64,000 nt of DNA from an uncultured Erysipelotrichaceae bacterium (lineage in GTDB: Bacteria > Bacillota_I > Bacilli_A > RFN20 > CAG-826). Shown here one piece after another: positions 27,943 to 43,883 of this stretch (the first letter of the stretch is position 1; every line of letters begins with the position of its first letter). The stretch covers positions 66,136 to 130,135 of the forward strand of contig OMWW01000002.1 in assembly GCA_900314865.1 (NCBI GenBank), written 5' to 3'. The position numbers and the translations under genes are program-made. The notes beneath the pieces were generated by a model. That model searched no databases. It saw only the letters and a list, made by a program, of their open reading frames with translations, and was not told where the DNA came from.

Positions 27943-28382
27943 ATATGAAAACCGCTATTGTCTATTATTCAAAACATCATAACAATACAAAAAAGATTTT
28001 AGATGTTCTTAAGAAAGAGTATCCTTCACTTGATTTATTTGACGTCACTTCAAAAGAAGATATTGATTTATCTACCTACGATAGAATCGGATTGGCCTCA
28101 GGCATTTACTTCAGTTCCTACGCAAAACAGGTGCTTTCTTTCGCGTTAAATAATCTTCCTGAGGGTAAAGATGTATTTTTCATTTACACTCATGGAGCTC
28201 CTATTGGTGGCTTTACTAGAAGTATCAAAAAGATAGTTAAAAAGAAAAAGTGTAAGGTAATAGGTAAGTTCCACTGCCGTGGATATGATACCTATGTTTT
28301 TAAACGCTTTGGTGGAATAGCAAAAGGAAGACCAAATAGCAAAGACATTGCCAATGCTATAAAATTTTACAAATCTTTGTAG
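27933..28382 (+). CDS. Flavodoxin-like protein.
   Basis: MKTAIVYYSKHHNNTKK, the flavodoxin N-terminal motif. 149 aa. Confidence 0.6.
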   Translation: MFLNMKTAIVYYSKHHNNTKKILDVLKKEYPSLDLFDVTSKEDIDLSTYDRIGLASGIYFSSYAKQVLSFALNNLPEGKDVFFIYTHGAPIGGFTRSIKKIVKKKKCKVIGKFHCRGYDTYVFKRFGGIAKGRPNSKDIANAIKFYKSL

Positions 28383-28385
28383 CAA

Positions 28386-28420
28386 AAAAGTCGCCCATCT
28401 TGGACGACTTATTTTTTATA
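28386..28420. terminator. Intrinsic terminator, bidirectional.
   Basis: AAAAAAGTCGCCCATCTTGGACGACTTATTTTTT. Confidence 0.6.
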
Positions 28421-28432
28421 ACAATCTTCAGA

Positions 28433-28708
28433 TCAGATGGTCAAATTTTCTTCAATTAGTTTGTTTATTAAATTTCTAGATTTGTCTAAAGAGTAGCCTT
28501 CTTCACCAGTAAGTCTTGCTGCAAAGGCTTCTAGCACTAGTTGCTGAGCCTGTAGCTCTTGTTCTCTCTTTTCAAAAGAGGAAATATCCATAACTACTAA
28601 TTCACTTTTTCCGTTTTTAGTTATGTAAATAGGTTTCCCGCTTCCTTTGCATTTTTTAACAGCTTCTTCGTATTTTAACTGGATACCATCAGATGTTGTG
28701 ATTCTCAT
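28433..28708 (-). CDS. Orphan Phd/YefM-like type II antitoxin.
   Basis: PIYITKNGKSELVVMDISSF matches the YefM/Phd pattern. No cognate toxin ORF is adjacent. Confidence 0.45.
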   Translation of the reverse strand: MRITTSDGIQLKYEEAVKKCKGSGKPIYITKNGKSELVVMDISSFEKREQELQAQQLVLEAFAARLTGEEGYSLDKSRNLINKLIEENLTI

Positions 28709-29024
28709 ACAAAACCCCTTTAAATAAATTTAGTAGATTTTTTAATGTTTTACAATTTGTCTCAAAAAAACATTTTATCAATGTCTCAGCGACAATTAAG
28801 CGAAGTAAAAAACATTACTGTATAGTTTTTCATACTACTTTATGAAATTTGATAAATCTTAGAGGTACAGATTATGAAGAAAAACGCAATCTTAAATGCG
28901 CTTAATCTAAATTAGTTAAATGAAATAAAATCCGAAATTTAGATTCGAACTTTTTTAAACTTAACGATACAAAATTTATAAACACTGCAACAAAACTAGA
29001 AAGGATCGGCCAAACCGATCTTTT

Positions 29025-29300
29025 CTAATTATCTCCGTAGTGTGACCACATTGAATGAACAACAATTGTGTTAATATCTTCGTGAACTTTGTAAACGAGC
29101 CTATGTTGAAGATTAATTCTTCTAGAATAATAGCCTTGTAAATCGCCAACAAGTTTTTCATAACTTGGTGGGTTTTGAAAAGGGTTTTTAGCGATAAGGT
29201 TTAATAATTTCTTTACTTTATCTTCCAATCCAGCGCTTTTAAGTAGTTTTTTATCTTTCTCAGCGTTTTTAGTGAATTTAATAATCCACATAACTACCAC
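29025..29300 (-). CDS. yoeB: YoeB/Txe family type II toxin (mRNA interferase).
   Basis: YYSRRINLQHRLVYKV...IVVHSMWSHY matches the YoeB signature. The probable start is the internal Met (MWIIKF...). Confidence 0.85.
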   Translation of the reverse strand: MVVMWIIKFTKNAEKDKKLLKSAGLEDKVKKLLNLIAKNPFQNPPSYEKLVGDLQGYYSRRINLQHRLVYKVHEDINTIVVHSMWSHYGDN

Positions 29301-29545
29301 TCTTCATTTGGATTATAAGTAGACATTTTAGAAATATCTTCTTTTTCGCCTTCTTTAATCTTTTCAACAAGACCTTTCTGAGAAACTAAATAAATAGTTT
29401 CCAACATAGCGTTGTATTCAGCTTCAGAGATAATAACTGCGTTTCCATTTTTTGTGTTCACAGTGATGGAGTCATTAAACTCAATGACGTTATCAATAGA
29501 ACTAAAGAGATTTTTTCTCAAAACAGAAATATTTGTAACTGCCAT
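29294..29545 (-). CDS. yefM: YefM/Phd family antitoxin.
   Basis: MAVTNISVLRKNLFSSIDNV...AVIISEAEYNAMLETIYL, the canonical YefM sequence. It overlaps the yoeB start. Confidence 0.85.
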   Translation of the reverse strand: MAVTNISVLRKNLFSSIDNVIEFNDSITVNTKNGNAVIISEAEYNAMLETIYLVSQKGLVEKIKEGEKEDISKMSTYNPNEEW

Positions 29546-29740
29546 AAGCTTTTCCTCCTGATTTCATTATACATAATTTATGTACGTAATCAAGTACAAT
29601 TGTTCTCTTTTATGTACATATAATTATCCAGTGGAGGACGTCAACTTAGCTAGTTTTACTATGGCTTCTTAACTATCTCGTACCAATTAACCTAAATGGT
29701 TCAGGCTTAGGTTTAGTGTAAATATATTCAATGAACATCA

Positions 29741-29770
29741 AAAAAGCGCCGGATTTATTCCGGCGTTTCT
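29741..29770. terminator. Intrinsic terminator of the ABC exporter operon.
   Basis: AAAAAGCGCCGGATTTATTCCGGCGTTTCTTTCTTTTT. Confidence 0.6.
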
Positions 29771-29793
29771 TTCTTTTTGGGTTTAAAACTCTA

Positions 29794-31581
29794 TTAATTG
29801 AATTGAGAGTTATAGATTTCGCTATATAGACCACCAAGTTTCATTAAGGAATCATGGGTTCCGGTTTCAACGATGTTACCATCTTTCATGACAAAGATGA
29901 GATCAGCGTTTTTAATGGTGGAAAGTCTATGAGCAATAACAAAGCTTGTTCTTCCTTTGGTCAAGGAGTCCATTGCTTTTTGAATCAAGATTTCGGTTCT
30001 AGTATCAACGTTACTAGTCGCTTCATCTAAGATAAGCATTGGAGCGTTTTCAGTCATCGCTCTTGCAATAGTCACTAATTGTTTTTGACCAGCGGATAAG
30101 GCACTTTCTTTTTGAATAATGGTGTCTAATCCTTGTGGTAAGGTCTCAACATAGTGGGCTAAGTTAGTCTCTTCAAGAATTTCTTTGAGTCGATTTTCAT
30201 CAACGTTCTTCAAGTTATAGACAATGTTTTCTCTTAATGAACCATTGATAACCCAAGTTTCTTGTAAGATCATTCCGAAGACGTCACGGAGTTCCGCTCT
30301 CGACATCTCTTTGATTGATTTACCATCCACTAAGATATCACCACTAGTGAGTTCATAGAATCTCATTAATAAGTTCACTAATGTGGTTTTACCAGCGCCG
30401 GTAGGACCAATAATTGCCACTTTCATACCAGGTTGAATCTTACCAGAGAAGTGTTTGATGGTAAGTTTACTTGGATCATAACCAAAGCACACATCTTTGA
30501 ATTCAACTTCACCACGGATATGAGAGTGATCAAGTAAGACTGGTTTATAACTATCATCATCAAGTTCTGGTTGTTCTAAGAGGTTGAAGACACGGTTACA
30601 AGCAGCGGTACCAAGTTGAATGGTTGAGCTGGCTTGGCCGATTTGCGCGAGTGGTTCTTGGAACAAGGAAACATAGATAATAAATCCAGTAATAATACCG
30701 ATATCGGAAATTTTGCCATTGGCGAATAATAAACCACCAGTAATCAAAACTGCCGCGTAAGTTAAGTAAGAAACAAAGGACATTGCAGGTTCAATTAATC
30801 CACCGATAGCTTGAGATTTGTATAAAACTGAACCAAGGACATTGTTCTTTTCTTTGAATTCTTCAATCTTCATATTTTCAGCATTGAAGGCTTTAATAAC
30901 GAGTTGTCCAGAATAGTTCTCTTCAACCGCAGCGTTAACATCACCAAGGACCTGTTGAGTCTTATCAAATAATGGTAAGGCTTTCTTAAAGGTCAATAAG
31001 ATGATAACTAACATAATTGGTAAGGAGCAAAGGACCACAAACGCCATTTGCCAGCAAGCGATGAACATGGCGATTAAAACACCAATTAACATGACGCCAG
31101 ATTGAACTAACATACTGACTGAGTTTTGTAAGGATGTTGATAAGGTATCAACGTCGTTAGTCATAACAGAGAGGATGTCACCGGTTTGAGTGGTGTCAAA
31201 GAAGTTAAGTGGCATCTTGTTGATTTTTTGAGAAATATCTCTTCTTAAATCCTTAGAGAATTTTTGAATAATAGTGTTAAGGATAAAGGCAGAAGCAAAT
31301 CCACCGATGAAGGATATAGCAATATAAATAATTAATATAGTTGCGTAATGGAGAACGCCATCTAAATTAACATAGAAACGTCCATCAAATATCGCAGCAG
31401 GATTTGGAACTAATTGGTTAGTTAAATTACGGACTGTTCCTGGAGTCAAAATTGTGAATACTACGGAAGTAATAAGTAAGATGATAGAAATAGCAAAAGG
31501 AATGTAGTATTTACGGAAAGCTTTTACGAGGCTGCCAAGTTTATTTTTTTCTTTACGAGCAGCTTTTAATTTTTCACTCAT
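29794..31581 (-). CDS. ABC exporter permease/ATPase fusion, heterodimeric multidrug-type, subunit B.
   Basis: Six TM helices plus an NBD with Walker A (GPTGAGKTT), signature (LSAGQKQ) and Walker B (ILDEATS). Confidence 0.85.
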   Translation of the reverse strand: MSEKLKAARKEKNKLGSLVKAFRKYYIPFAISIILLITSVVFTILTPGTVRNLTNQLVPNPAAIFDGRFYVNLDGVLHYATILIIYIAISFIGGFASAFILNTIIQKFSKDLRRDISQKINKMPLNFFDTTQTGDILSVMTNDVDTLSTSLQNSVSMLVQSGVMLIGVLIAMFIACWQMAFVVLCSLPIMLVIILLTFKKALPLFDKTQQVLGDVNAAVEENYSGQLVIKAFNAENMKIEEFKEKNNVLGSVLYKSQAIGGLIEPAMSFVSYLTYAAVLITGGLLFANGKISDIGIITGFIIYVSLFQEPLAQIGQASSTIQLGTAACNRVFNLLEQPELDDDSYKPVLLDHSHIRGEVEFKDVCFGYDPSKLTIKHFSGKIQPGMKVAIIGPTGAGKTTLVNLLMRFYELTSGDILVDGKSIKEMSRAELRDVFGMILQETWVINGSLRENIVYNLKNVDENRLKEILEETNLAHYVETLPQGLDTIIQKESALSAGQKQLVTIARAMTENAPMLILDEATSNVDTRTEILIQKAMDSLTKGRTSFVIAHRLSTIKNADLIFVMKDGNIVETGTHDSLMKLGGLYSEIYNSQFN

Positions 31582-33326
31582 AATCCTAATTCCTCCTTAC
31601 TTAATTGAGATAACGCAATTTCTTGGTAAACTGGGCAATTTCTCACTAAATCATAGTGTTTGCCAATACCAACCATCTTGCCGTGATCTAAAACGACGAT
31701 TTGGTCTGCGTCCATAATCGTACCAACACGTTGAGCAATAATAACACGGGTGGTGTTTGGAAGTTTTTCAGCAATACGACCTCTGACAACTTTATCAGTC
31801 TTATAGTCAAGAGCAGAGAAAGAATCATCAAAGATTAAGATTTCTGGTTTGGTAGCTACTGCTCTAGCGATACATAATCTTTGTTTTTGTCCACCAGAGA
31901 AGTTCATACCACCTTGAGCGACTTCAGAATCATAGCCATTACGTTTATTCATGACGAAGCCGTCCGCATCGGCGATTTCGGCTGCCCATCTGACATCTGC
32001 TAAAGTCATATCTGGATTCTTAAAGGCGATATTGTCTTTGATAATACCTTTAAAGAGGAAGCCTCTTTGTGGAGCGTAACCAATACGATCTCTTAAATCT
32101 TTTTGAAGAACGTCTTTAACGTTAACCCCATCCACTAAAACTTCTCCACTTGTGGCGTCTGCCATACGTGGAATCATATTAATAATTGTGGTTTTACCAC
32201 TACCAGTTGCACCGATAAAGGCAATGGTCTCGCCTTGTTTCACTTTAAAGGAAATATTAGAGACCGCTTCTTTTTCACTGCCAGGATAAGCAAAACCAAC
32301 GTTTTTAAATTCAATTGTACCTTTTTCTTTGAATTCCACTGGATGATCGGTATCTAAAATTGAGACATCGTGGTCGATAACTTCTTGAATACGTTTCGCA
32401 CAGACAGAAGCTCTTGGCCAGATAACGATAAGAGTGATAATAAGAATGAAGGACATAACGATTTGGCTAGCAAGCATAACGAAGGCATTAGTAGAACTAA
32501 AGGCCGCGGCTGCAGGTGCTACTTCCATACCGTTAATTGTATAAGCACTAACCCATAAGATACATAGTGTTAAGCCCATCATAACCATCATTACGAATGG
32601 TGTGAAGAATGCTAAAACACGACCTGTAAAGATTTGCACTTTTGTAAATTGAGCGTTAACTTCTTCAAATTTACCTTCTTGGTATTTCTCGGCATTGAAC
32701 GCTCTAACGACTCTAACACCAGTTAAGTTTTCTCTTGAAGAGATGTTGAGGTAATCAGTTAATTTTTGAACAATCTTATATTTTGGTGTCACCATCATTA
32801 ATAGAATGGCAACAACCGCCACTAATAAGAAAACCCAAATAGCGGTAACAATGGTTAATGAAGAATTAGCCTTTTGCACCAAAAGAACGATTGACCACAC
32901 CAAAGTAATTGGAGCGACAAACGCTGTCTTTAAGAATGTTAACCAAGCAAGGTGAACATTTTGGATATCGTTAGTGGTTCTAGTAATTAAGGACTCTGTT
33001 GAAAAAGAAGCGAAATCAGAAAGAGCAAATTCATTAGCTCTCTCATAGAGCTTCTCTCTTAAAGAAGTGACTGTACTACTAGCTGCCGCACTAGCGACAA
33101 AACGAATAATAACTTCGACTACTGCCATACATACTGCACAAATAACCATGTATAAGCCATAACGCCAAATCGCATCGACGTTTTGCTCACCCACTGATTT
33201 TGTAAGCAGTTCGATGTTCTGAACAATCGTCATCATGAAGAAAACCTGGCCAAAGGTCAAAATAAAAATCACTACGACCGCGATCCAGTTCTTTGCCTTC
33301 ATGTTTTTGAAAAGTAACTTGAACAT
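31578..33326 (-). CDS. ABC exporter permease/ATPase fusion, subunit A. No C39 peptidase domain.
   Basis: GATGSGKTT, FSGGQKQR, ILIFDDSFSALD. It overlaps the partner gene by 4 nt. Confidence 0.85.
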   Translation of the reverse strand: MFKLLFKNMKAKNWIAVVVIFILTFGQVFFMMTIVQNIELLTKSVGEQNVDAIWRYGLYMVICAVCMAVVEVIIRFVASAAASSTVTSLREKLYERANEFALSDFASFSTESLITRTTNDIQNVHLAWLTFLKTAFVAPITLVWSIVLLVQKANSSLTIVTAIWVFLLVAVVAILLMMVTPKYKIVQKLTDYLNISSRENLTGVRVVRAFNAEKYQEGKFEEVNAQFTKVQIFTGRVLAFFTPFVMMVMMGLTLCILWVSAYTINGMEVAPAAAAFSSTNAFVMLASQIVMSFILIITLIVIWPRASVCAKRIQEVIDHDVSILDTDHPVEFKEKGTIEFKNVGFAYPGSEKEAVSNISFKVKQGETIAFIGATGSGKTTIINMIPRMADATSGEVLVDGVNVKDVLQKDLRDRIGYAPQRGFLFKGIIKDNIAFKNPDMTLADVRWAAEIADADGFVMNKRNGYDSEVAQGGMNFSGGQKQRLCIARAVATKPEILIFDDSFSALDYKTDKVVRGRIAEKLPNTTRVIIAQRVGTIMDADQIVVLDHGKMVGIGKHYDLVRNCPVYQEIALSQLSKEELGL

Positions 33327-33587
33327 AACTTCTCCTTTTTAAAAAAATGTAGGTATTATTTTAGAAGAAAGAAAGATTATTCATAATCTCTTTTATTCTT
33401 CTACAAACTAAAAAAATTATATAGAGATATAAGGTGTTTTTCAATTTAATAAATTACAAAAACAAAAAGTCGTCCTCAAGGACGAGTTATTAAACGCGCA
33501 CAAATTCTTTGTATATCATACAAAATCTAAGAAAATGCCTCCTCAAAGGAAAGGACAAACAATATGTTTCGATTAGTGCAACAAAAA

Positions 33588-33612
33588 ACCGAGTTCGACT
33601 CGGTAATTTTTT
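33588..33612. terminator. Bidirectional terminator hairpin after the peptide gene.
   Basis: AAAAAACCGAGTTCGACTCGGTAATTTTTTT. Confidence 0.5.
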
Positions 33613-33615
33613 TAA

Positions 33616-33912
33616 TTAATTTTCAAGATTTTTGTTCACTGTGATTTTGTTGCAGTACTTGCATCTATACCATGCGTCTGACACTTTTTCCATACAGTGT
33701 CTATTGAGACATTCTGGACATTGCATATTGTCAATTTCATACCATTCTTTTGATTTACCACATCCACCATTAATAGCGGATAGTTGCTCGTCGGTGAGTT
33801 CAACACCTTCATCTTTGGCAAGTTTAAATAGTTCTTCTTGACCATTACACGCTTTGACTTTTGCGATTTGTTCTTCAGTTAAACCTTTTAATAATTCTTG
33901 TTTCATATTCAA
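33616..33912 (-). CDS. Nif11/NHLP-like-leader peptide precursor with a Cys-rich C-terminal core (putative RiPP, bacteriocin or zinc-ribbon peptide).
   Basis: The leader LTEEQIAKVKACNGQEELFKLAKDEGVELTDEQLSAINGG resembles the Nif11-type leader family (LAKEAGFEFTAEEL...ELEAVAGG) and ends in a double-Gly. The core after GG contains 7 Cys: CGKSKEWYEIDNMQCPECLNRHCMEKVSDAWYRCKYCNKI. Confidence 0.5.
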   Translation of the reverse strand: MNMKQELLKGLTEEQIAKVKACNGQEELFKLAKDEGVELTDEQLSAINGGCGKSKEWYEIDNMQCPECLNRHCMEKVSDAWYRCKYCNKITVNKNLEN

Positions 33913-33946
33913 AGTTCTCCGTTATTAATTGTATGTTACCATAGTG

Positions 33947-33968
33947 GTTGCCACAGAAGTGCCACACA
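33947..33968 (-). promoter_or_regulatory. Tandem direct-repeat promoter motif (minus strand TGTGTGGCAC-TTC-TGTGGCAAC-N8-TAACAT).
   Basis: The same architecture (two ~8-bp TGTGRYRC repeats 11 bp apart, then 8 nt, then a -10 hexamer) recurs upstream of the genes starting at 36353 and 43822. Confidence 0.45.
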
Positions 33969-33996
33969 AAAAAGCCGCCCGCTAGGACGACTTAAT
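33967..33996 (-). terminator. Intrinsic terminator for the minus-strand gene 34025..34696.
   Basis: AAAAAAGCCGCCCGCTAGGACGACTTAAT. The plus-strand C/A mismatches become G-U pairs in the minus-strand RNA. Confidence 0.5.
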
Positions 33997-34024
33997 ATGC
34001 ATTCAATTTTAAGAATGAAAATAA

Positions 34025-34696
34025 TTAGATATTAAACACATCTCCTGGAGAAACGATTGCTAATACAGGTTCATTTCTTAAACCGTGTTCAGTAATGAAT
34101 ATTAAAGCGCATCTTTTGTGATCTTTGTTATAGCCAATAAAATATTGTTTGGCGTCAAAAGCAAAGGTGTCTCTCGCCAAGAAAAGATAATATAAATCTT
34201 TACTGTTATTAATATCGAACTTATCTTTAAAATCTTCAATAATGTATGTTTTATCTTCGTCGTATTCTTCGTTAGCTAGAATGGAGAATATTGTTCGCAT
34301 AGAAACAACATACCTTACACATCCTTTGTCATCAAAGATTGGAACATTGGTGATGTGATGATGATCCATAAAACGCATAGCGTGTGATACATCAGTGTCA
34401 GGCGATAGTGTTTTAATATTATCTTTTTTAATTCCTACATCGTACGCTTTTACAACCAATTTATTTATTATTTCTTCTAGTGTTTCTAGTACATAATCAG
34501 CGACGTGAAAAGGAAAATCACCATTAACTTTTGGGGTGTGTGTCAAACAATTACGGATATGTCTTAAAGCATTGAATTCGACAAAGTGTTGTTTTTTGAT
34601 CATCTCAAAGCGATGAGGATCATTTTCTTCGATATATTCAAATGTCTTATACTCATCTAGGAATTTTTGCGTTATTTCAGCGTTATATGTAGCCAT
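34025..34696 (-). CDS. Putative HEPN-like (RNxxxH) domain protein fused to a CBS domain. Function unknown, possibly a ligand-gated RNase or Abi-like protein.
   Basis: FNALRHIRNCLTHTP contains an R-N-x3-H motif typical of HEPN nucleases. The C-terminal IKTLSPDTDVSHAMRFMDHHHITNVPIFDDKGCVRYVVSMRTIF matches the CBS domain pattern. Confidence 0.35.
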   Translation of the reverse strand: MATYNAEITQKFLDEYKTFEYIEENDPHRFEMIKKQHFVEFNALRHIRNCLTHTPKVNGDFPFHVADYVLETLEEIINKLVVKAYDVGIKKDNIKTLSPDTDVSHAMRFMDHHHITNVPIFDDKGCVRYVVSMRTIFSILANEEYDEDKTYIIEDFKDKFDINNSKDLYYLFLARDTFAFDAKQYFIGYNKDHKRCALIFITEHGLRNEPVLAIVSPGDVFNI

Positions 34697-34800
34697 AAAT
34701 CAACATATCCCTTCTATAAATAAATTTTAATCTTTTTTTAAAAGAAAAGCGCACAAATTCTTCTACAACATAAACTTTAAAGGCCAAGTAATTCATCAAA

Positions 34801-34830
34801 AAAAGCCGCCACTGTGGGCGACTTAATTTG
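34801..34830 (-). terminator. Intrinsic terminator for the gene at 34863..36353.
   Basis: AAAAGCCGCCACTGTGGGCGACTTAATTT. Confidence 0.5.
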
Positions 34831-34862
34831 TACAACTAGACATCGTCTAGCTATTTTGCATT

Positions 34863-36353
34863 TTATTGTTCGAGCTGAGGAATTTCAACTTTGTAGTGAA
34901 CCACTAACCTTTTGACCTTAAAGAAGTTAACGTTACTAATATTATCAGGAATACTGATTTTGATTTCGTCTTTTGTAAAGCTATCGATATAGAATTTAGA
35001 AATCTTTTCGTTGTCAGTATCATCGATATTTAATTTGGTATGGGCAAAATTGCCACCAGTAATTGAAAGATCATCTCTTGCGCCCACTTCACTCATATCG
35101 AGCACTAATTCAATGCAGCTAACTTTATCAGGATCGAAGTCTTTGACATCAACCTTATCTTGGTTGCCTTTTCCGTCCGCTTTATAGTATTTACTATAAT
35201 TTTTGTTTAAGCGTAAATAAGGAGTTAGGGCAGATGTGCCTCTAGCGTGTTGATGCCATAAATCATCTTCATCATAGCTTTGAGTTTCACAATGGCCTTT
35301 TCCACTAATGGTGTCAACATAACTTTCGAGATCATAATATGCGCCATCATAAGATTTAACGAATGTATCAGTTTCTTCTTCACGCCACACCATATTATCA
35401 AGCCATTTTTCTTGATAGCATAGTCTAACACCTTGTCTAAAAGTTTCACTTGGTGCTTCGATAAATTCTGCAACAAACTTATAAACACCGTCTTGTTCAG
35501 TTACGAACGTGTAATCAGCATCGGTGCTAATGATTTGTTCGCTGCCATTTAAATGCCATCCCTTAAAGAGACAGAAATTATCATTTTGATAATTATAGAA
35601 TGGGTAAGCATGAATTGTGACAGAAGTTCCATTAGCGACAACTTTATAGCCTTTATTATTCGCTACCGCATTATCGATAGCAACATTGCCTTTTGAGGAA
35701 TCAGAACTCGTTACACTGACATAGGTTTTCGTGCTTTCGCAACTAAAATAATATTTAACAGAATCGATTACCCATGTATTGCCACTATAGAAATAGTCTT
35801 TGTTACCAATATAATAATAAGCACTACCTTCTCTATCAAAACCACTACCTGTGTTTATAACATAAGTGTAATCATATTCTTTTACAGAATGAATACTACT
35901 TGTAGCATTTGTCAGAGTGTCCTTATCTAAATTAGCCATATCAGGATCGGCAAGATAATAGACATATAATGCATAGTAATACCCTAAACTTGTGCCACTC
36001 AGATAATGGCCAGTGATATCCATTCTTGTGACACCTCTAAGTGGGGTTTCGTTGATTAAATAATCATTAGCGCTTGTCATTTCTAGAGCAACACCCTCTT
36101 TAGTGGAAGGAGCTGATTTCGTTTTAAAAACTATATCATTGCCAAGACCAGTTTTAAACGTACCTCTATACACATCTCCATCTTGCACAAAGTTAGATTT
36201 ATTTGATGCGTCGATAGTTAATGTGTAATCATTCTCTGCACGAGTTCGAAGACTAATAAAGTCATTAGTACTCATAAAAGTAGCAATACCAATACATATT
36301 GATAAAGTTACTGTAGTAATAGTAGTAAGAGTGAATAAATCTTTCTTTTTCAT
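34863..36353 (-). CDS. Secreted or surface protein of unknown function.
   Basis: Start reassigned to ATG 36351-36353 (MKKKDLFTLTTITTVTLSICIGIATF..., a signal/anchor sequence) with SD GAGGT. The track's GTG-initiated N-terminal extension contains the promoter -10 TATAAT. Confidence 0.6.
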   Translation of the reverse strand: MKKKDLFTLTTITTVTLSICIGIATFMSTNDFISLRTRAENDYTLTIDASNKSNFVQDGDVYRGTFKTGLGNDIVFKTKSAPSTKEGVALEMTSANDYLINETPLRGVTRMDITGHYLSGTSLGYYYALYVYYLADPDMANLDKDTLTNATSSIHSVKEYDYTYVINTGSGFDREGSAYYYIGNKDYFYSGNTWVIDSVKYYFSCESTKTYVSVTSSDSSKGNVAIDNAVANNKGYKVVANGTSVTIHAYPFYNYQNDNFCLFKGWHLNGSEQIISTDADYTFVTEQDGVYKFVAEFIEAPSETFRQGVRLCYQEKWLDNMVWREEETDTFVKSYDGAYYDLESYVDTISGKGHCETQSYDEDDLWHQHARGTSALTPYLRLNKNYSKYYKADGKGNQDKVDVKDFDPDKVSCIELVLDMSEVGARDDLSITGGNFAHTKLNIDDTDNEKISKFYIDSFTKDEIKISIPDNISNVNFFKVKRLVVHYKVEIPQLEQ

Positions 36354-36383
36354 ATTATTTACCTCACACATATTATACGCGTG

Positions 36384-36404
36384 CTGTGTCACAAAAGTGT
36401 CACA
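36384..36404 (-). promoter_or_regulatory. Tandem direct-repeat promoter motif (TGTGACAC-TTT-TGTGACAC-N8-TATAAT).
   Basis: Seen directly in the minus-strand sequence. See the shared motif at 33947 and 43862. Confidence 0.45.
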
Positions 36405-36744
36405 AAAAAGGACGCCACTGTGGGCGACTTAATTTTTATTGATTTAGCCTAAATTTAGAGCCTTACCATATGTGTCGAATGATTCCTGTGAAAGGAGAGA
36501 AAGTATGAAAAATGATCAAGTGTTAGTAGATCTTAATTTGTGTTTTGTGTTTTGATTAATTAATTATTTGTGAGTAAGTTATCTATGTCAATTGTTGAAT
36601 AGAGATTTTTCGCGCTAGAAAAATGCGTTTTTATTATTTCTTTTCTCATTTTTTTACACTGAATCATACTAAATAAATAATTCCTTGAATTACGAAGTTA
36701 AAAGTTATATAACTTTAGATACTTTGTTTAGGAGAGTGAATACT

Positions 36745-38019
36745 ATGAAAATTAGAAATATCATTGCTACTTCGTTATTAGGGCTCATATCTATTGCTGG
36801 ATTATCTTCTTTATTAATCAATAAGACTAATAAACCAGTTATCGCTAAAGCAGAAGATGAAGTAACCATGAAAAGAACCTATGTCGGAATTGATCGAGAT
36901 GGAAAAATGGAGAACGCTGATCAATATTTAAATGCTGAAGGAGTTAAGGCGGTTGTTTGGTGTTTTACTGGAGATTTTAGTCTTACTGAATCAAACGGAG
37001 AATTATTTGATATCACTGTGATTGGTCCTCGACTTGGAATTACTGAATTACCAGTTAATCTTCCAAAAAGTAGAATCTTTAGAACTCCTATTTCCACTCC
37101 AGCAGGAATTACATCTCTAAAAGATGTCACTATTTATAATATGTCTAAAGAAGATATTATTAGATATGACTCTCCAAACACTATTACAGTAGGCGATTGG
37201 GATTATGCTACTTATACCCTCGGCATGAGAGATGAAAAATTTAAATTTATGCCATCAGGCACTACTGTTACTTTAGATCTCACTGAATGCGATATCAATT
37301 GGTTAGATGCTTACGCGACACATTATTTTGTAAGCTATTGTTATTTTGATTACATGTTTAGCTATACATCTATTTTTGTGAAAATGGAATTTGACACTAC
37401 ATTAAATAAATTAGTCGCAACTACCACTCAAGATATTTGGTGTACAGGTATTATCTTTACTAGAAACGATCCAAATGGAACTCCATATAGCTGGGAGTCA
37501 AAATGGAATCAAACCACTAATCAAGATGATGTAGAAAGTTCATGCAACTTCAAAATGTTAGAAGGCAAATTTGGAGATAATTATAACTGTGCCTCAGTAG
37601 ATGATATTGAACGTACTGAAATATACGCACAAAAGATATTAGATAAATTTACTTGTACCGGAGAAACTAGAAGCTTCTCTAACGATGATTGGGTTTATTT
37701 CTTCTTTGATTTACAATATGAATCTTATTCATTTAAAGATTTGCTTAAAACCTCAGTGGCTAAAGAAAGTTCTACTTATCTTAGAGAAGTAGCCTTATAT
37801 AGATATGACTATGTAGTTTTCTATAAAGATTATGGCTTATATGATTATATGGATAGAGGTAGCTCTCCAAATAAAGCCTTCTCAGCAAAGAACACATCCA
37901 CTAGTGGCGTCTTAAATGATTTGAGCTCTGATAGCACTCCAATATTAATTGTTGTTGCCGCTACTGCTACTTTATCATTAACCGCTTTACTTATTATCAA
38001 AAAGAAAAAAAGTAGATAA
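36745..38019 (+). CDS. Surface-anchored protein of unknown function.
   Basis: Start moved to MKIRNIIATSLLGLISIAGL (signal peptide; SD AGGAGAG). A C-terminal hydrophobic segment is followed by a KKKKSR tail, as in the nuclease. Confidence 0.6.
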   Translation: MKIRNIIATSLLGLISIAGLSSLLINKTNKPVIAKAEDEVTMKRTYVGIDRDGKMENADQYLNAEGVKAVVWCFTGDFSLTESNGELFDITVIGPRLGITELPVNLPKSRIFRTPISTPAGITSLKDVTIYNMSKEDIIRYDSPNTITVGDWDYATYTLGMRDEKFKFMPSGTTVTLDLTECDINWLDAYATHYFVSYCYFDYMFSYTSIFVKMEFDTTLNKLVATTTQDIWCTGIIFTRNDPNGTPYSWESKWNQTTNQDDVESSCNFKMLEGKFGDNYNCASVDDIERTEIYAQKILDKFTCTGETRSFSNDDWVYFFFDLQYESYSFKDLLKTSVAKESSTYLREVALYRYDYVVFYKDYGLYDYMDRGSSPNKAFSAKNTSTSGVLNDLSSDSTPILIVVAATATLSLTALLIIKKKKSR

Positions 38020-38393: not shown

Positions 38394-39824
38394 TTAATCT
38401 TGGTAGTGTTTTATCGCATCATAGATGGTCTTTTCTTTTGATTCATGACCATATTTATCGACGTCTAATTTATTTCTCACTTCGTGGGTCAAAGAGCACG
38501 GTCCTCCAATGCATCCAGTAAGACATCCCATACCTTCAATGAAGTTAAAGTCAACAGTGCCAGTTTTAGCTTTCATAAGTGCTAAACGACAATTATCTAA
38601 ACCATCAACTGAGATTGGTTTAACTTCAAATGAACTTCCTTGTTCTTTAAGAGCTTCTTTAACTGCATCGGTAAGTCCGCCGCTACGAGCGAAGATTCTG
38701 CCATAGTATGAAGCATTATCTAGTGGCGATTCTTCTAAAGAAGCAAAATCAATTTCTTTAGCATCGATCATCGCTTGAAGTTCTTCAAATGTTAAAGCAA
38801 CATCAACATATGGAGCGACTCTTTCATCTTTGATTTCTTGTTTCTTAGAAATACATGGTCCAATAAACATAATCTTACAATTTGGATTATGCTCTTTGAT
38901 CCATTTCGCAATGGTTGCCATAGGCGATAAATTATGAGAAATCTTATCTGCTAAAGTTGGGAAATATTTCTTAATGAAAGTTACGAATGTTGGACAGCAA
39001 CTAGAAGTTAAGAATCCTTTTTCTTCGAGTTCTTTAGCCTCAGCGTAGCTAACCATATCTGCTCCTAAAGCAGCTTCAATTACACTTCGATAGCCAAGTT
39101 TTTGAATAGCGGTCACAACTTGTCCTAAGGTAACACCTTTAAATTGTGATGAGATTGAAGGAGCGACAATCGCATAGACCGGATATTTATTTGAATAATC
39201 AGAATCTTTCAAAATATCGATTGCATCTTTGATGAAACTTTTATCCATGATTGCACCAAATGGGCATTGATAGACGCAAGCTCCACATTGGACACACTTT
39301 TCATCATCGATTTTGGCAGAGTGATCGTCATTTGTAGAAATAGCTTTAACCTTACAAGCTTGTTCACATGGTCTAAGATAGTTTTGAATCGCGTTATATT
39401 GACATGCTTTCGCACACATTCCGCAGTTGATACATTTAGTTTTATCGATGATTGCAGTTCTATTTACTTCGTCAAATCTAATCGCATCTTTACGACAAGC
39501 TTTTTGACAACGATGGGCAATGCAACCGCGACATCTATTCGTGACTTCATATCCACCTAAAGGACATTCATCACAAGCAATCTTGACGACTTCAACAATA
39601 TTTTTAATATTCTTATTGCCGCCTAAAGCTAATTTCATTCTTTCTAAAACGATAGCTCTTTCTTTATAAATACAGCATCTCATCGTGGATTTTGGTCCCG
39701 GTGATATTCTTAAAGGAATCTCGTTATATTCTTCTAAAAGAGTATCATTAAATAATCCTCTAGCGATTTCTTTGAGAATCTTATACTTGAGTTCTTGAAC
39801 ACTTGTATCAAATCTTGTATCCAT
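38394..39824 (-). CDS. hydA: [FeFe] hydrogenase catalytic subunit with N-terminal ferredoxin-like [4Fe-4S] domains.
   Basis: H-cluster motifs L1 (TSSCCP), L2 (GPCISKKQE) and L3 (EGMGCLTGCIGGP), plus three CxxCxxCxxxCP clusters at the N-terminus. Confidence 0.8.
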   Translation of the reverse strand: MDTRFDTSVQELKYKILKEIARGLFNDTLLEEYNEIPLRISPGPKSTMRCCIYKERAIVLERMKLALGGNKNIKNIVEVVKIACDECPLGGYEVTNRCRGCIAHRCQKACRKDAIRFDEVNRTAIIDKTKCINCGMCAKACQYNAIQNYLRPCEQACKVKAISTNDDHSAKIDDEKCVQCGACVYQCPFGAIMDKSFIKDAIDILKDSDYSNKYPVYAIVAPSISSQFKGVTLGQVVTAIQKLGYRSVIEAALGADMVSYAEAKELEEKGFLTSSCCPTFVTFIKKYFPTLADKISHNLSPMATIAKWIKEHNPNCKIMFIGPCISKKQEIKDERVAPYVDVALTFEELQAMIDAKEIDFASLEESPLDNASYYGRIFARSGGLTDAVKEALKEQGSSFEVKPISVDGLDNCRLALMKAKTGTVDFNFIEGMGCLTGCIGGPCSLTHEVRNKLDVDKYGHESKEKTIYDAIKHYQD

Positions 39825-39836
39825 AGTATCTGCTCC

Positions 39837-43126: not shown

Positions 43127-43822
43127 TTAACAATCCCAAGTTACAGTTATGCTGTCAAGAAATAAAGCGCAATATCCGCCACCAGAAACAACCGCTGTAC
43201 TAAAAATTTTAATTTCGAATAAAGCATATCTAATCACATGATTTTGATCTGGCTTTGTCCATGTATGAGTGTAGTGATGATCATTTATGACAGTGTTGCT
43301 GGAAAATTCCCCTTGTTGATAGAGTTCGTCTTCACTAATAGGATTATTTATACATTTATTAACATCATAATCTTCGCCAAAAAACCTAACTGTCGCACTA
43401 TAACTGGTACTATTTTGATTGTCAGCGCCTGGAAGCAAATGGAACGAGAATGAGAATGATTGCAAGTTATTGACACCAACTGCAAACGTAGTTTTTAAGT
43501 CATGGGAGTTGTCATTGACTGGATAATCGGTCCAATAGAAACAATCGTTTTGAACACCAAATCCATGTTGATTACCCCAGGTTACGGTATTTGTTCTTGC
43601 AGAAATTGCACTACGATTCACGGTAGGAGCAATAGTTTTTTCGTCGTCTATGTCGCTGCTCCAATAGGTATTTCCCACACCCTGATCAAATGTAAAACTC
43701 TTTTCGCTTGCTAACACTTTATTGAATGAAGGTAATACTTTACCTGTTTGAGTTGTAATGATTGTCAATGCTGTTAATGTTGCTGCCGTTATAGACGCTA
43801 ATAATAATCCTTTATTTTTCAT
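43127..43822 (-). CDS. Secreted protein of unknown function.
   Basis: Signal peptide MKNKGLLLASITAATLTALT. Its promoter carries the tandem TGTG repeat motif. Confidence 0.55.
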   Translation of the reverse strand: MKNKGLLLASITAATLTALTIITTQTGKVLPSFNKVLASEKSFTFDQGVGNTYWSSDIDDEKTIAPTVNRSAISARTNTVTWGNQHGFGVQNDCFYWTDYPVNDNSHDLKTTFAVGVNNLQSFSFSFHLLPGADNQNSTSYSATVRFFGEDYDVNKCINNPISEDELYQQGEFSSNTVINDHHYTHTWTKPDQNHVIRYALFEIKIFSTAVVSGGGYCALFLDSITVTWDC

Positions 43823-43861
43823 ATTTTCGCACCCTCAAAATGCTTATAGATATTATCATTT

Positions 43862-43883
43862 TTGTGTAACAAAAGCACCACAA
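43862..43883 (-). promoter_or_regulatory. Tandem direct-repeat promoter motif (TGTGGTGC-TTT-TGTTACAC-N8-TAATAT).
   Basis: Same spacing and architecture as the motifs at 33947 and 36384. Confidence 0.4.

What the first reader, a model, noticed from the sequence alone, without database searches (positions are those of the whole stretch)
29794..33990. Nif11/NHLP-like-leader, Cys-rich peptide gene directly upstream of a heterodimeric ABC exporter pair
The 98-aa ORF at 33616..33912 has an N-terminal ~50 aa that strongly resembles Nif11-type RiPP/bacteriocin leaders (LAKDEGVELTDEQLSAINGG versus the family's LAKEAGFEFTAEEL...ELEAVAGG) and ends in a double glycine. The 48-aa core has 7 Cys in CPxC/CxxC arrangements. 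The next genes on the same strand encode two half-size ABC exporter subunits that lack a C39 peptidase domain. Neither an obvious modification enzyme nor a PCAT is present, so this may be an unmodified disulfide or zinc-binding bacteriocin-like peptide exported by a non-canonical route, or a RiPP whose tailoring genes lie elsewhere. The promoter carries an unusual tandem-repeat motif shared with two secreted-protein genes. A hairpin after the peptide gene could attenuate read-through into the exporter genes.
Basis: partly seen in the sequence, partly recalled or inferred. Interest (0 to 1): 0.65.

Follow-up and report, generated by a model that had tools for sequence, protein, structure and literature searches.

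The report
Stand-alone exported zinc-ribbon peptide precursor gene
A small gene encodes a leader-plus-cysteine-rich peptide from a large family of apparently exported peptides in uncultured rumen bacteria, for which I found no published description; in related genomes its processing and export genes sit in a dedicated cluster that is absent from this window, and the two transporter genes next to it are unrelated neighbours.

Summary
The ORF is real (ATG 33906 to stop 33616, minus strand, 96 aa). It has a 48-aa Nif11-like leader ending in GG and a 48-aa core with a CPxC...CxxC zinc-ribbon pattern. The core holds 6 Cys, not 7; the seventh is in the leader. The window copy scores below threshold on Nif11 models, but 69-71 of 82 homologues match them.

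The family has at least 893 homologue clusters, mostly from rumen MAGs labelled Erysipelotrichaceae or Bacilli, with at least 7-15 copies per genome. Leaders are about 80% identical between paralogues and cores about 30%. This particular core is 96% conserved across 16 distinct orthologue sequences from related MAGs and metagenome contigs.

In related genomes the same orthologue sits in or beside a cluster that encodes:
- a radical-SAM/SPASM enzyme
- an NHLP-type C39 peptidase-ABC transporter and a second ABC subunit
- a histidine kinase and response regulator
- partner-switching regulators.

None of these is in the window. The adjacent ABC pair is a TM287/288-type exporter with its own promoter behind two terminators. 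Its adjacency to the peptide is not conserved.

A conserved direct-repeat promoter drives the peptide gene, two secreted-protein genes in the window and, in related loci, the maturation operon.

Verdict: a stand-alone precursor most likely processed in trans. It is a new variant of Nif11-leader peptides.

The parts
33949..33966 (-). Promoter element: two 7-bp direct repeats 11 bp apart (TGTGGCA-CTTC-TGTGGCA), lying where a -35 element would be
   Evidence: Exact match to the pattern. The same element occurs 40-43 nt before the ATG in 82 of the 84 distinct precursor upstream regions (of 196 examined) that carry it.
33933..33941 (-). Extended -10 element TGGTAACAT, 7 nt after the second repeat
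   Evidence: Position-specific counts in the 84 motif-bearing promoters give T(78) G(79) n T(83) A(83) n n A(67) T(83) at this fixed distance. Sequence read.
33616..33906 (-). Precursor peptide CDS: 96 aa plus stop. Leader residues 1-48 are 33763-33906; core residues 49-96 are 33619-33762.
   Evidence: At least 893 homologue clusters were found. The leader is nearly invariant, and the core keeps GG-C...CPxC...CxxC.
33588..33604 (-). Intrinsic terminator of the peptide gene (7-bp stem, 3-nt loop, T-run)
33972..33993 (-). Terminator of the upstream CBS-domain gene. It isolates the peptide gene on its 5' side.
33470..33485 (-). Second terminator-like hairpin between the peptide gene and the ABC operon
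33416..33444 (-). Sigma-70-type promoter of the ABC operon itself (TTGAAA-17-TATAAT, 11/12). Not part of the peptide system.
31578..33326 (-). Neighbour, judged unrelated: ABC half-transporter of the TM287 / EfrC type. Its Walker B is ...IFDD, i.e. a degenerate site.
29794..31581 (-). Neighbour, judged unrelated: ABC half-transporter of the TM288 / EfrD / BmrD(YheH) type
36387..36404 (-). Second exact copy of the direct-repeat promoter element. It lies before the 496-aa PKD-like membrane-anchored or secreted protein gene (ATG 36353, end 34863).
43865..43882 (-). Degenerate copy of the promoter element (TGTGGTGC-TTT-TGTTACA, then TGATAATAT). It lies about 42 nt before a 231-aa signal-peptide protein gene (43127..43822).

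Best explanation
The ORF is a stand-alone, monocistronic precursor gene of a large family of Nif11-leader peptides found in uncultured rumen Bacilli, labelled Erysipelotrichaceae or Bacilli in the source records.

Shown:
- It has its own family-specific promoter and its own terminator.
- Its leader is the conserved family leader, ending in GG.
- Its core is one conserved type of a zinc-ribbon-like module (C-x13-CPxC-x15-CxxC).
- In related genomes the same orthologue sits in or beside a cluster. That cluster encodes a LytS-type histidine kinase, a response regulator, a 398-aa unknown protein, a short single-Cys precursor, an rSAM/SPASM enzyme, a 130-aa HlyD-N-terminal-like protein, a C39 peptidase-ABC transporter close to TIGR03796, a second ABC subunit close to TIGR03797, and STAS / RsbW-like / SpoIIE partner-switching proteins.

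Inferred:
- The window's copy is handled in trans by such a cluster elsewhere in its genome, as dispersed prochlorosin precursors are handled by one ProcM.
- The C39 domain cuts after G47-G48, and the PCAT/ABC2 pair exports a 48-aa peptide that folds as a zinc ribbon or is otherwise cross-linked.
- The rSAM enzyme probably acts on the one element shared by all cores, the Cys 0-4 residues after GG followed by a Ser/Thr-rich stretch.
- The response regulator, whose C-terminal domain weakly resembles SARP winged-helix domains, probably binds the 7-bp direct repeats and switches on the whole regulon. The short-core peptide is a candidate autoinducer.

The adjacent ABC pair is an independent multidrug-type exporter.
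For: Family and anatomy:
- At least 893 homologue clusters.
- Leader nearly invariant, core variable but keeping GG-C...CPxC...CxxC.
- 174 of 190 cores have CxxC...CxxC, and all 190 have a Cys 0-4 residues after GG.
- 69 and 71 of 82 members hit the Nif11 models, and cores hit many zinc-ribbon models.
- The AF2 core has pLDDT 76-88. Top Foldseek hits are all the eL43/L37ae zinc ribbon, though with E>=0.1.

Context:
- Tandem arrays flank the rSAM - p130 - PCAT - ABC2 - STAS genes.
- PCAT scores 819.5 bits on TIGR03796 and ABC2 655 bits on TIGR03797.
- The orthologue of the window peptide lies next to this operon in L003, L012, L013 and L018 and next to its kinase/regulator pair in L016.
- The window lacks all of these genes.

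Selection on the core:
- Across 16 distinct orthologue sequences the core is 96% identical and the leader 74%.
- Synonymous to non-synonymous codon differences are 7.0 in the core and 1.06 in the leader, with 31% third-position divergence in the core.

Regulon:
- The motif lies at a fixed 40-43 nt before the ATG in 82 of the 84 distinct upstream regions (of 196) that carry it.
- It also precedes the maturation operon (with gene positions).
- The kinase/regulator pair lies beside the operon in L013 and L042 and near precursors in four further loci. The regulator's C-terminal domain best matches EmbR and AfsR.

Independence of the ABC pair.

Precedent: Nif11-derived peptides occur in paralogous families and use the TIGR03794/96/97 export cassette (PMC2887384). 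Nine Nif11-type LahA precursors are cut by one PCAT (PMC6363468).
Against: - The window copy is below threshold on every leader model.
- The source genome outside the window could not be examined, so a cognate rSAM/PCAT cluster is assumed, not shown.
- PCAT and ABC2 in relatives score just under the NCBIfam equivalog cutoffs.
- The rSAM enzyme belongs to no curated maturase family. Because it always follows the short-core precursor, it may modify only that peptide.
- No structural match reaches significance.
- The match of the regulator to SARP domains is weak (E=0.068 and 0.5).
- No experimental evidence exists for cleavage, export, metal binding or activity.
- Three genomes do have the ABC pair adjacent to the orthologue, which I read as a shared neighbourhood.
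Confidence: 0.68

Rival explanations
1. Same trans export by a PCAT, but the zinc-ribbon cores are not modified. The rSAM enzyme matures only the short single-Cys peptide encoded directly upstream of it. The window's product would then be an unmodified, GG-leader, zinc-binding or disulfide-bonded mini-protein, i.e. a class-II-bacteriocin-like cargo rather than a RiPP. This differs from the best explanation only in the modification step.
For: - The short-core precursor lies immediately upstream of the rSAM gene in 6 of the 7 rSAM loci; in L068 the short-core copy lies about 3 kb upstream.
- The zinc-ribbon cores have canonical CPxCG / CxxCG knuckles that hit ordinary zinc-ribbon models, and AF2 predicts a folded core.
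- Core sequence is under strong purifying selection, as for a folded protein.
Against: - Every zinc-ribbon core keeps an extra Cys 0-4 residues after GG, and 174 of 190 cores have Ser/Thr within the next 4 residues. This is the same feature as in the short cores. A fifth conserved Cys is not needed for a four-Cys zinc site.
- All precursors share the same 48-aa leader, far longer than a C39 site needs. LahT needs only about 13 residues (PMC6363468). That suggests the leader is also read by the maturase.
Confidence: 0.3
2. One reading: the peptide is exported by the adjacent heterodimeric ABC exporter without a C39 peptidase, with the hairpin tuning read-through into the exporter genes.
For: - Same strand, with 289 bp between the genes.
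- Orthologues of the ABC pair are also next to precursors in L017 and L040.
Against: - Two terminators plus an 11/12 sigma-70 promoter lie between the genes.
- The three adjacent cases have three different gene orders or orientations.
- The pair and the orthologue are about 44 kb apart in UBA7278.
- None of 7 close ABC orthologues from metagenomes has a precursor or the motif nearby.
- The pair is only 26-29% identical to the family's PCAT and ABC2 and best matches TM287/288, EfrCD and BmrCD multidrug-type exporters.
- Nothing in this reading would remove the leader.
Confidence: 0.05
3. An intracellular small zinc-ribbon protein with an N-terminal Nif11 domain, for example a regulator or nucleic-acid binder. 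It would be neither cleaved nor exported.
For: - Zinc ribbons are typically intracellular.
- Cores hit TFIIB, IS1595, Lar and L37ae-type models.
- One source annotates a homologue as a 'predicted RNA-binding Zn-ribbon protein'.
- The core is more conserved than the leader among orthologues.
Against: - GG is invariant at the domain junction and the junction is predicted disordered.
- The family is physically clustered with a C39-PCAT, ABC2 and an HlyD-like protein.
- There are 7-15 or more hypervariable paralogues per genome in tandem arrays.
- The genes are co-regulated with signal-peptide proteins.
Confidence: 0.08
4. A decaying orphan copy with no function in this genome.
For: - It is the only copy in 64 kb, and no processing genes are nearby.
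- Its leader is among the weakest scorers on Nif11 models.
Against: - The ORF is intact, with an RBS, an exact promoter motif at the canonical spacing and a terminator.
- The core is 96-100% identical to orthologues despite substantial synonymous divergence.
Confidence: 0.05

Closest known systems
Nif11-derived RiPP precursors (N11P, TIGR03798) with the NHLP/N11P export cassette TIGR03794/03796/03797 (Haft, Basu & Mitchell 2010, PMC2887384). Examples: prochlorosins, and LahA1-9 with LahT (PMC6363468).
   Same: - A long helical leader ending in an ELxDEQLxAVxGG-type motif.
- Large paralogous families with a conserved leader and variable core.
- Precursors dispersed in the genome and served by one processing system.
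- A C39-ABC plus a C39-less ABC plus an HlyD-like protein.
   Different: - The tailoring enzyme is an uncurated rSAM/SPASM protein, not LanM or a cyclodehydratase.
- Cores are 40-50-aa zinc-ribbon-like modules with 5 conserved Cys, rather than short Ser/Thr/Cys-rich peptides.
- Orthologous cores are more conserved than leaders.
- The HlyD-like partner is only 130 aa.
- The hosts are rumen Bacilli and a few Lachnospiraceae.
- Scores fall just under the curated cutoffs.
Sactipeptides and ranthipeptides (rSAM/SPASM thioether RiPPs; maturases SkfB, AlbA, CteB, PapB)
   Same: - An rSAM/SPASM maturase with an N-terminal extension encoded beside Cys-containing precursors.
- The closest solved relatives of the maturase are SkfB (E=2.4e-9) and CteB.
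   Different: - No curated maturase model is met; the best are AhbD 115 bits, StsB 78, PapB 70 and AlbA 64, all far below their cutoffs.
- The Cys pattern is that of a zinc ribbon, not the sactipeptide hairpin or the SCIFF motif.
- The chemistry is unknown.
Three-component regulated class II bacteriocin loci: inducing peptide with GG leader plus histidine kinase plus response regulator that binds direct repeats (for example the plantaricin, sakacin and Blp/Com systems). This comparison rests on my own knowledge.
   Same: - A GG-leader short peptide, a kinase/regulator pair and a PCAT in one cluster.
- Multiple effector peptide genes, each behind a promoter with direct repeats.
- The promoter also precedes the export operon, giving an autoinduction layout.
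   Different: - The regulator is not LytTR-type. Its C-terminal domain weakly resembles SARP winged-helix domains.
- The repeats are 7 bp at an 11-bp period and overlap the -35 position.
- An rSAM enzyme and a partner-switching module are added.
- The pheromone role of the short peptide is only inferred.
SARP-type activators (AfsR, EmbR, DnrI), which bind heptameric direct repeats at 11-bp periodicity just upstream of the -10 element. This comparison rests on my own knowledge; PDB 8hvr and 2fez appear as hits.
   Same: - Two heptamers separated by 4 bp, the proximal one ending 10 nt before the -10 hexamer.
- No recognisable -35 element.
   Different: - Here the domain is fused to a receiver domain in a Firmicute.
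- Sequence similarity is marginal, and binding has not been tested.
Heterodimeric type IV ABC exporters with one degenerate ATP site (TM287/288, EfrCD, BmrCD, LmrCD). This describes the neighbouring genes only.
   Same: - Two overlapping half-transporter genes.
- The first subunit matches TM287 and EfrC chains; the second matches TM288, EfrD and YheH.
- Walker B is DD in one subunit and the signature motif is LSAGQ in the other (read).
   Different: Nothing notable. It is an ordinary member of the kind with an unknown substrate.

Membership tests
N11P: Nif11-like leader RiPP precursor (TIGR03798 / PF07862) | Score at or above the curated cutoff on the leader model | tested here: not met
   Window copy: TIGR03798 13.5 bits against 32.3, and PF07862 14.8 against 23.8. 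At family level, 69 and 71 of 82 members match at E<=0.01, with best E-values of 6e-6 and 1.2e-5. One homologue, P0099, is named 'Nif11-like leader peptide family natural product precursor' by NCBI. It is therefore a divergent relative, not a model-passing member.
N11P: Nif11-like leader RiPP precursor (TIGR03798 / PF07862) | Leader ends in the ELSDEELEAVAGG-type motif with a double glycine | tested here: met
   The leader ends ELTDEQLSAINGG at residues 36-48. G47 and G48 are invariant in 82 sequences. The consensus motif is taken from PMC2887384, Table 3.
N11P: Nif11-like leader RiPP precursor (TIGR03798 / PF07862) | Paralogous expansion with a conserved leader and variable core | tested here: met
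   Up to 10 copies per locus and at least 7-15 per MAG. Leaders are 77-83% and cores 29-32% identical among paralogues. The window itself holds one copy.
N11P: Nif11-like leader RiPP precursor (TIGR03798 / PF07862) | Association with the TIGR03794/03796/03797 export cassette | tested here: inconclusive
   Present in related loci, but just under the equivalog cutoffs: 819.5 against 853.3 and 655 against 709.4 bits. The HlyD-like partner is a 130-aa fragment-like protein scoring 24 bits.
Sactipeptide / ranthipeptide | Cognate rSAM/SPASM maturase of a recognised maturase family | tested here: not met
   Radical_SAM and SPASM domains are present, but no curated maturase model comes near its cutoff. 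The closest solved proteins are SkfB and CteB, and only at E of about 1e-9 to 1e-7.
Sactipeptide / ranthipeptide | Cys-to-carbon thioether cross-links in the mature peptide | not testable with these tools
   Needs co-expression and MS/MS or NMR.
Class II (unmodified) double-glycine-leader bacteriocin | Short (15-30 aa) GG leader recognised by the bacteriocin leader models | tested here: not met
   The leader is 48 aa. TIGR01847 scores 14.5 against 15.7, PF10439 12.5 against 27.1 and TIGR03949 18.7 against 21.5.
Zinc ribbon fold | Two CxxC knuckles 10-30 residues apart on a beta-hairpin scaffold | tested here: met
   C63-P-E-C66 and C82-K-Y-C85 form the knuckles. 174 of 190 family cores have CxxC...CxxC. 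AF2 predicts three strands with pLDDT 76-88. Family members hit Zn_Ribbon_TF, IS1595, Lar, FmdB and L37ae models. The top Foldseek hits are eL43/L37ae, but none is significant (E>=0.1).
Zinc ribbon fold | Metal binding | not testable with these tools
   Needs ICP-MS or cobalt-substitution spectroscopy on the purified core.
Heterodimeric TM287/288-type ABC exporter (the neighbouring genes) | Two half-transporters (TMD-NBD) encoded in tandem, with one degenerate nucleotide-binding site and no peptidase domain | tested here: met
   Each has ABC_membrane plus ABC_tran only. The genes overlap by 4 nt, with Walker B ...FDD in the 582-aa protein and LSAGQ in the 595-aa protein. The chain-specific best bacterial matches are TM287, EfrC and 8wcw_A for the first subunit, and TM288, EfrD, YheH and 8wcw_B for the second.

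The most novel reading that the evidence does not exclude
Uncultured rumen Bacilli run a quorum-sensing-like circuit with these components:
- a short single-Cys, rSAM-modified peptide as the signal
- a LytS-type kinase
- a receiver-SARP-like regulator that binds heptamer repeats.

The circuit would switch on a regulon of 10-15 or more exported zinc-ribbon mini-proteins plus several secreted proteins. Exported zinc-ribbon peptides with a Nif11 leader and a modified N-terminal Cys would be a new RiPP or bacteriocin class. They would also be the first case known to me of a zinc ribbon used as an extracellular effector, which is plausible in the reducing, anoxic rumen. Each paralogue is conserved across species, which suggests specific targets rather than an arms race.
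Probability: 0.3. Interest if true: 0.78.

Novelty: new variant of a known kind. Interest (0 to 1): 0.55.

Why it matters
If the reading is right, this gene marks a large and so far uncharacterised family, with at least 893 sequence clusters, that combines known RiPP logistics with an unusual cargo. The logistics are a Nif11 leader, a C39-PCAT and an rSAM/SPASM enzyme. The cargo is a family of folded, zinc-ribbon-like 45-aa modules, present in 7-15 or more paralogues per genome.

Possible payoffs:
- New radical-SAM chemistry on an N-terminal Cys motif.
- A new scaffold class for exported peptides in anaerobes.
- A defined, easily recognisable regulon in abundant but uncultured rumen Bacilli. 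Its parts are the promoter TGTGRCAC-WTT-TGTGRCA-N7-TGnTAnnAT, a kinase/regulator pair and a partner-switching module.

For annotation, it shows that a precursor next to an ABC exporter need not be its substrate. Orphan precursors should be linked to their processing cluster by leader identity and shared promoter, not by adjacency.

Tried and rejected
1. Sigma-54 promoter. The window's TGGCAC-N5-TGGCA resembles TGGCAC-N5-TTGCA. Across the family, however, the second element is mostly TGTGACA, with no GC at -12, and a conserved extended -10 follows. Rejected.

2. Rfam scan of 28000-37000 at E<=1 found no RNA family, so no riboswitch or attenuator lies between the peptide gene and the ABC genes.

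3. Aligning the upstream regions of ABC orthologues to test promoter conservation. The regions are too diverged to align, so this was uninformative.

4. Assigning the 398-aa first gene of the maturation operon. It has no Pfam, NCBIfam or PDB sequence hit. Its 'DLHFDN' kinase-like motif is only my reading of the sequence.

5. Literature. Seven full-text searches and a term search inside the Hungate1000 bacteriocin survey found no description of Nif11-leader zinc-ribbon precursors. One query was poorly chosen and returned noise. The library lacks most subscription papers, so absence is not proof.

6. Walking out of the window to find the source genome's own rSAM/PCAT cluster. This was not possible.

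7. Fold search of the whole model against the PDB gave no significant hit. The consistent L37ae matches are suggestive only.

Full report
**1. What is in the sequence**

The ORF listed at 33616..33912 on the minus strand is present. A GGAG lies 10 nt before the ATG at 33906, and all homologues begin M-K/R-x-E-L-L. The product is therefore most likely 96 aa:

MKQELLKGLTEEQIAKVKACNGQEELFKLAKDEGVELTDEQLSAINGG | CGKSKEWYEIDNMQCPECLNRHCMEKVSDAWYRCKYCNKITVNKNLEN

The core has six Cys (49, 63, 66, 71, 82, 85). The unmodified core mass is 5819.6 Da.

The gene is boxed in by the terminator of the upstream CBS-domain gene (33972-33993) and its own terminator (33588-33604). A second terminator-like hairpin (33470-33485) and an 11/12 sigma-70 promoter (TTGAAA-17-TATAAT, 33444-33416) lie before the first ABC gene. 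The scan found 4 terminator-like sites against 0.4 expected. Rfam finds nothing in 28000-37000.

**2. Leader**

This copy alone is below threshold on every leader model:
- TIGR03798: 13.5 bits against 32.3.
- PF07862: 14.8 against 23.8.
- TIGR01847: 14.5 against 15.7.
- TIGR03949: 18.7 against 21.5.

At family level the assignment holds. The protein search returned 893 homologue clusters. Of 82 aligned members, 69 match TIGR03798 and 71 match PF07862 at E<=0.01. NCBI names one member a Nif11-like leader peptide precursor.

The leader ends in ELTDEQLSAINGG, which matches the N11P/NHLP motif ELSDEELEAVAGG (PMC2887384). Residues -4, -7 and -12 are hydrophobic.

**3. Core**

In alignments the leader is nearly invariant. 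The core is variable but keeps GG-(0-4 residues)-C ... CPxC ... CxxC. Among 196 unique precursor ORFs in the fetched loci, 190 had an identifiable GG site. Of these:
- 174 have CxxC...CxxC.
- All 190 have a Cys within 4 residues of GG.
- 174 have Ser/Thr within the next four residues after that Cys.
- Most cores are 40-49 aa with 5-6 Cys.

Cores hit many zinc-ribbon models, including Zn_Ribbon_TF, IS1595, Lar, FmdB and L37ae. The AlphaFold model (mean pLDDT 71) gives:
- a helical leader (pLDDT 62-68)
- a disordered GG junction (below 50)
- a three-stranded core (76-88).

Foldseek against the PDB has no significant hit. Its top matches are uniformly the zinc-ribbon ribosomal protein eL43/L37ae, with local rmsd of 1.2-2 Å over 33-38 columns. 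I read the core as a zinc-ribbon-like module. Metal binding is untested.

**4. Where the family lives and what it sits next to**

The genome scan places the family in rumen MAGs labelled Erysipelotrichaceae, Bacilli or Bacillales. Sample names include goat, yak, deer and sheep rumen or omasum. A few hits are in Lachnospiraceae and Pseudobutyrivibrio MAGs.

Loci carry 1-10 copies, and MAGs carry at least 7-15. Two metagenome loci first showed the context: tandem precursor arrays flanking an rSAM/SPASM gene (465 aa), a 130-aa protein, a C39-ABC transporter (723 aa), a second ABC subunit (727 aa), and STAS, HATPase_c_2 and STAS-APH genes.

Scores on curated models:
- The PCAT scores 819.5 bits on TIGR03796 (cutoff 853.3).
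- ABC2 scores 655 bits on TIGR03797 (cutoff 709.4).
- The 130-aa protein matches the N-terminus of TIGR03794.
- The rSAM enzyme has Radical_SAM and SPASM domains but fits no curated maturase family.
- Its nearest solved relatives are SkfB (E=2.4e-9) and CteB.

A short precursor with a single-Cys core lies directly upstream of the rSAM gene in 6 of 7 rSAM loci. An example core is GCGDSTKPQKRKIES. Upstream of that lie a 398-aa protein with no detectable family and, in L013 and L042, a LytS-type histidine kinase plus a response regulator. The same pair occurs near precursors in L016, L029, L049 (kinase only) and L079 (regulator only). Downstream, SpoIIE-HATPase_c_2 proteins complete a partner-switching set.

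**5. The window's peptide is an orthologue of a cluster-resident peptide**

Twenty-five loci, the window included, carry the same core type, at 80-100% core identity. In L013 it lies between the 398-aa gene and the short precursor, immediately before the rSAM gene. In L012, L018 and L003 it is within a few kb of that operon, and in L016 it follows the kinase/regulator pair.

Among 16 distinct orthologue sequences from related MAGs and metagenome contigs (120 pairs), the core is 96% identical and the leader 74%. Codon differences are 1860 synonymous to 266 non-synonymous in the core, against 1649 to 1554 in the leader. Third positions differ at 31% in the core. The conservation therefore reflects purifying selection on the mature peptide, not recent transfer. 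Paralogues within a locus show the reverse pattern: leader 77-83%, core 29-32%.

**6. The ABC pair is a neighbour, not a partner**

Both proteins have only ABC_membrane and ABC_tran domains, and the genes overlap by 4 nt. One subunit has a degenerate Walker B (FDD) and the other a deviant signature (LSAGQ). Chain by chain they match TM287/TM288, EfrC/EfrD and BmrD (YheH). They are only 26-29% identical to the family's PCAT and ABC2.

From the peptide side:
- Among 21 orthologue-bearing loci beside the window, two (L017, L040) have the pair adjacent.
- The three adjacent cases differ in layout. In the window the peptide gene is upstream on the same strand, in L017 it is downstream on the same strand, and in L040 the genes are convergent.
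- In UBA7278 the closest ABC orthologue (86%) and the peptide orthologue are on one contig about 44 kb apart.

From the ABC side, a metagenome scan gave 7 orthologues at 80-82% identity. None has a precursor or the promoter motif in its flanks. A tblastn positive control on the window worked.

With the terminators and separate promoter, co-transcription and dedicated export are not supported.

**7. Promoter and regulon**

Of 196 distinct precursor upstream regions, 84 carry TGTGRCA-N4-TGTGRCA. In 82 of those 84 it ends 40-43 nt before the ATG. A conserved extended -10 (TGnTAnnAT) follows 7 nt after the second repeat. The 4-nt spacer (C-W-T-T) is itself conserved. The remaining regions include internal genes of tandem arrays.

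In the window the exact motif occurs twice: at 33949-33966 and at 36387-36404. The second precedes a 496-aa protein with an N-terminal hydrophobic anchor and a weak PKD-like hit, whose true start is ATG 36353. A degenerate copy with a perfect TGATAATAT lies about 42 nt before a 231-aa signal-peptide protein gene. Within 2 mismatches there are 4 matches in the window against 0.77 expected.

In related loci the motif also precedes:
- the 398-aa gene (L003 16698)
- the short precursor - rSAM operon (L012 1994, L042 9941)
- a homologue of the 496-aa protein (L015 3715).

I first considered a sigma-54 promoter and rejected it on the family consensus. Two heptamers at an 11-bp period that replace the -35 element are what SARP/OmpR-type winged-helix activators use (my own knowledge). 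The cluster's response regulator has a C-terminal domain whose best PDB matches are the SARP proteins EmbR (E=0.068) and AfsR (E=0.5). This is a lead, not a demonstration.

**8. Mechanism proposed**

Shown:
- The gene is a monocistronic unit with the family promoter.
- It has the family leader with GG and a conserved zinc-ribbon-type core.
- Its orthologues are embedded in rSAM/PCAT clusters elsewhere.

Inferred:
- The peptide is recognised through its leader by a maturase and a C39-PCAT encoded elsewhere in the genome, cut after G48 and exported.
- The rSAM enzyme targets the Cys-x-x-Ser/Thr element shared by short and long cores.
- The kinase/regulator pair, perhaps sensing the short peptide, activates all motif promoters.

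The main open alternative is that the zinc-ribbon peptides are exported unmodified.

**9. Comparison and novelty**

The logistics match N11P/NHLP systems (PMC2887384) and the LahA/LahT precedent of many Nif11-type precursors served by one PCAT (PMC6363468). rSAM enzymes acting on Nif11/NHLP-leader peptides are also known (PMC11002830).

What differs:
- a folded zinc-ribbon-like core with a fifth conserved Cys
- an rSAM enzyme outside curated families
- core conservation exceeding leader conservation among orthologues
- the dedicated direct-repeat promoter regulon with a kinase/regulator pair and a partner-switching module.

Seven full-text searches and a look inside the Hungate1000 bacteriocin survey found no description of this family. 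The library is incomplete.

I classify it as a new variant of a known kind. The specific claim that made the finding look unusual, export by a non-canonical adjacent transporter, does not hold.

**10. Limits**

- The rest of the source genome could not be read.
- All functional steps are inferred from context.
- Several assignments rest on sub-threshold or weak matches, as marked above: the window leader, the fold of the core and the SARP-like domain.

Noticed in passing
window 34863-36404 (-) and 43127-43882 (-): Two genes for secreted or anchored proteins sit behind the same direct-repeat promoter as the peptide gene. One is 496 aa, with an N-terminal hydrophobic segment and a weak PKD-like hit. 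The other is 231 aa, with a signal-peptide-like N-terminus and no Pfam hit. Homologues of the 496-aa protein recur near precursors in L015 (with the motif), L041, L074 and L077.
   Followed up: partly
window 33486-33587 (-): About 100 nt lie between two terminator-like hairpins, between the peptide gene and the ABC promoter. The stretch contains GAGGAGG followed by a 9-codon ORF (MIYKEFVRV). It has no Rfam hit and no homology to a precursor. It could be a small orphan transcript or a remnant.
   Followed up: partly
window 34025-34696 (-); L072:9244-10285; L077:3100-4108: The CBS-domain gene is 93-94% conserved in two related MAGs and is followed there, at the same short distance, by a precursor with a different core type (GGGACSVISDIGDYINPNDCPRCG...). 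The same slot thus holds different cassettes, which suggests core swapping by recombination between the conserved leaders and promoters.
   Followed up: partly
window 33847-33849 (codon for C20 of the peptide); alignments A1 and A2: A Cys in the leader (KAC, residue 20) is invariant in 82 aligned family members. It is replaced (REF) in some short-core precursors next to the rSAM gene (L003, L018). Its role is unknown.
   Followed up: no
L003:16738-17934 and orthologues in L012, L013, L018: A 398-aa protein is the conserved first gene of the maturation operon and sits behind the motif promoter. It has no Pfam, NCBIfam or PDB sequence match. It contains a 'DLHFDN' stretch reminiscent of kinase catalytic loops, which is my reading and is unverified.
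   Followed up: partly
L013:5526-7543; also L016, L029, L042, L049, L079: A LytS-type histidine kinase and a response regulator lie beside the maturation operon (L013, L042) or near precursors. The regulator's C-terminal 130 aa has no Pfam hit, but its best PDB matches are the SARP proteins EmbR and AfsR (E=0.068 and 0.5). A receiver-SARP fusion in Firmicutes would be unusual.
   Followed up: partly
window 28433-29545 (-): Type II toxin-antitoxin genes lie just downstream of the ABC pair: a Phd/YefM antitoxin (29294-29545) with a YoeB/ParE-like toxin (29025-29300), plus a second Phd/YefM-like gene (28433-28708). A similar TA pair lies near precursors in L006.
   Followed up: partly
window 38394-42684 (-): Two [FeFe]-hydrogenase-like genes (Fe_hyd_lg_C with ferredoxin domains) flank a SpoIIE/PP2C phosphatase gene. 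The layout resembles sensory hydrogenase regulatory modules.
   Followed up: no
L026, L030, L052, L068, L076, L087, L088: Family members also occur in MAGs labelled Lachnospiraceae, Pseudobutyrivibrio and even Candidatus Saccharibacteria. L068 (Pseudobutyrivibrio) has the rSAM and PCAT genes as well. This points to horizontal spread among rumen Firmicutes, or to binning errors for the odd labels.
   Followed up: no
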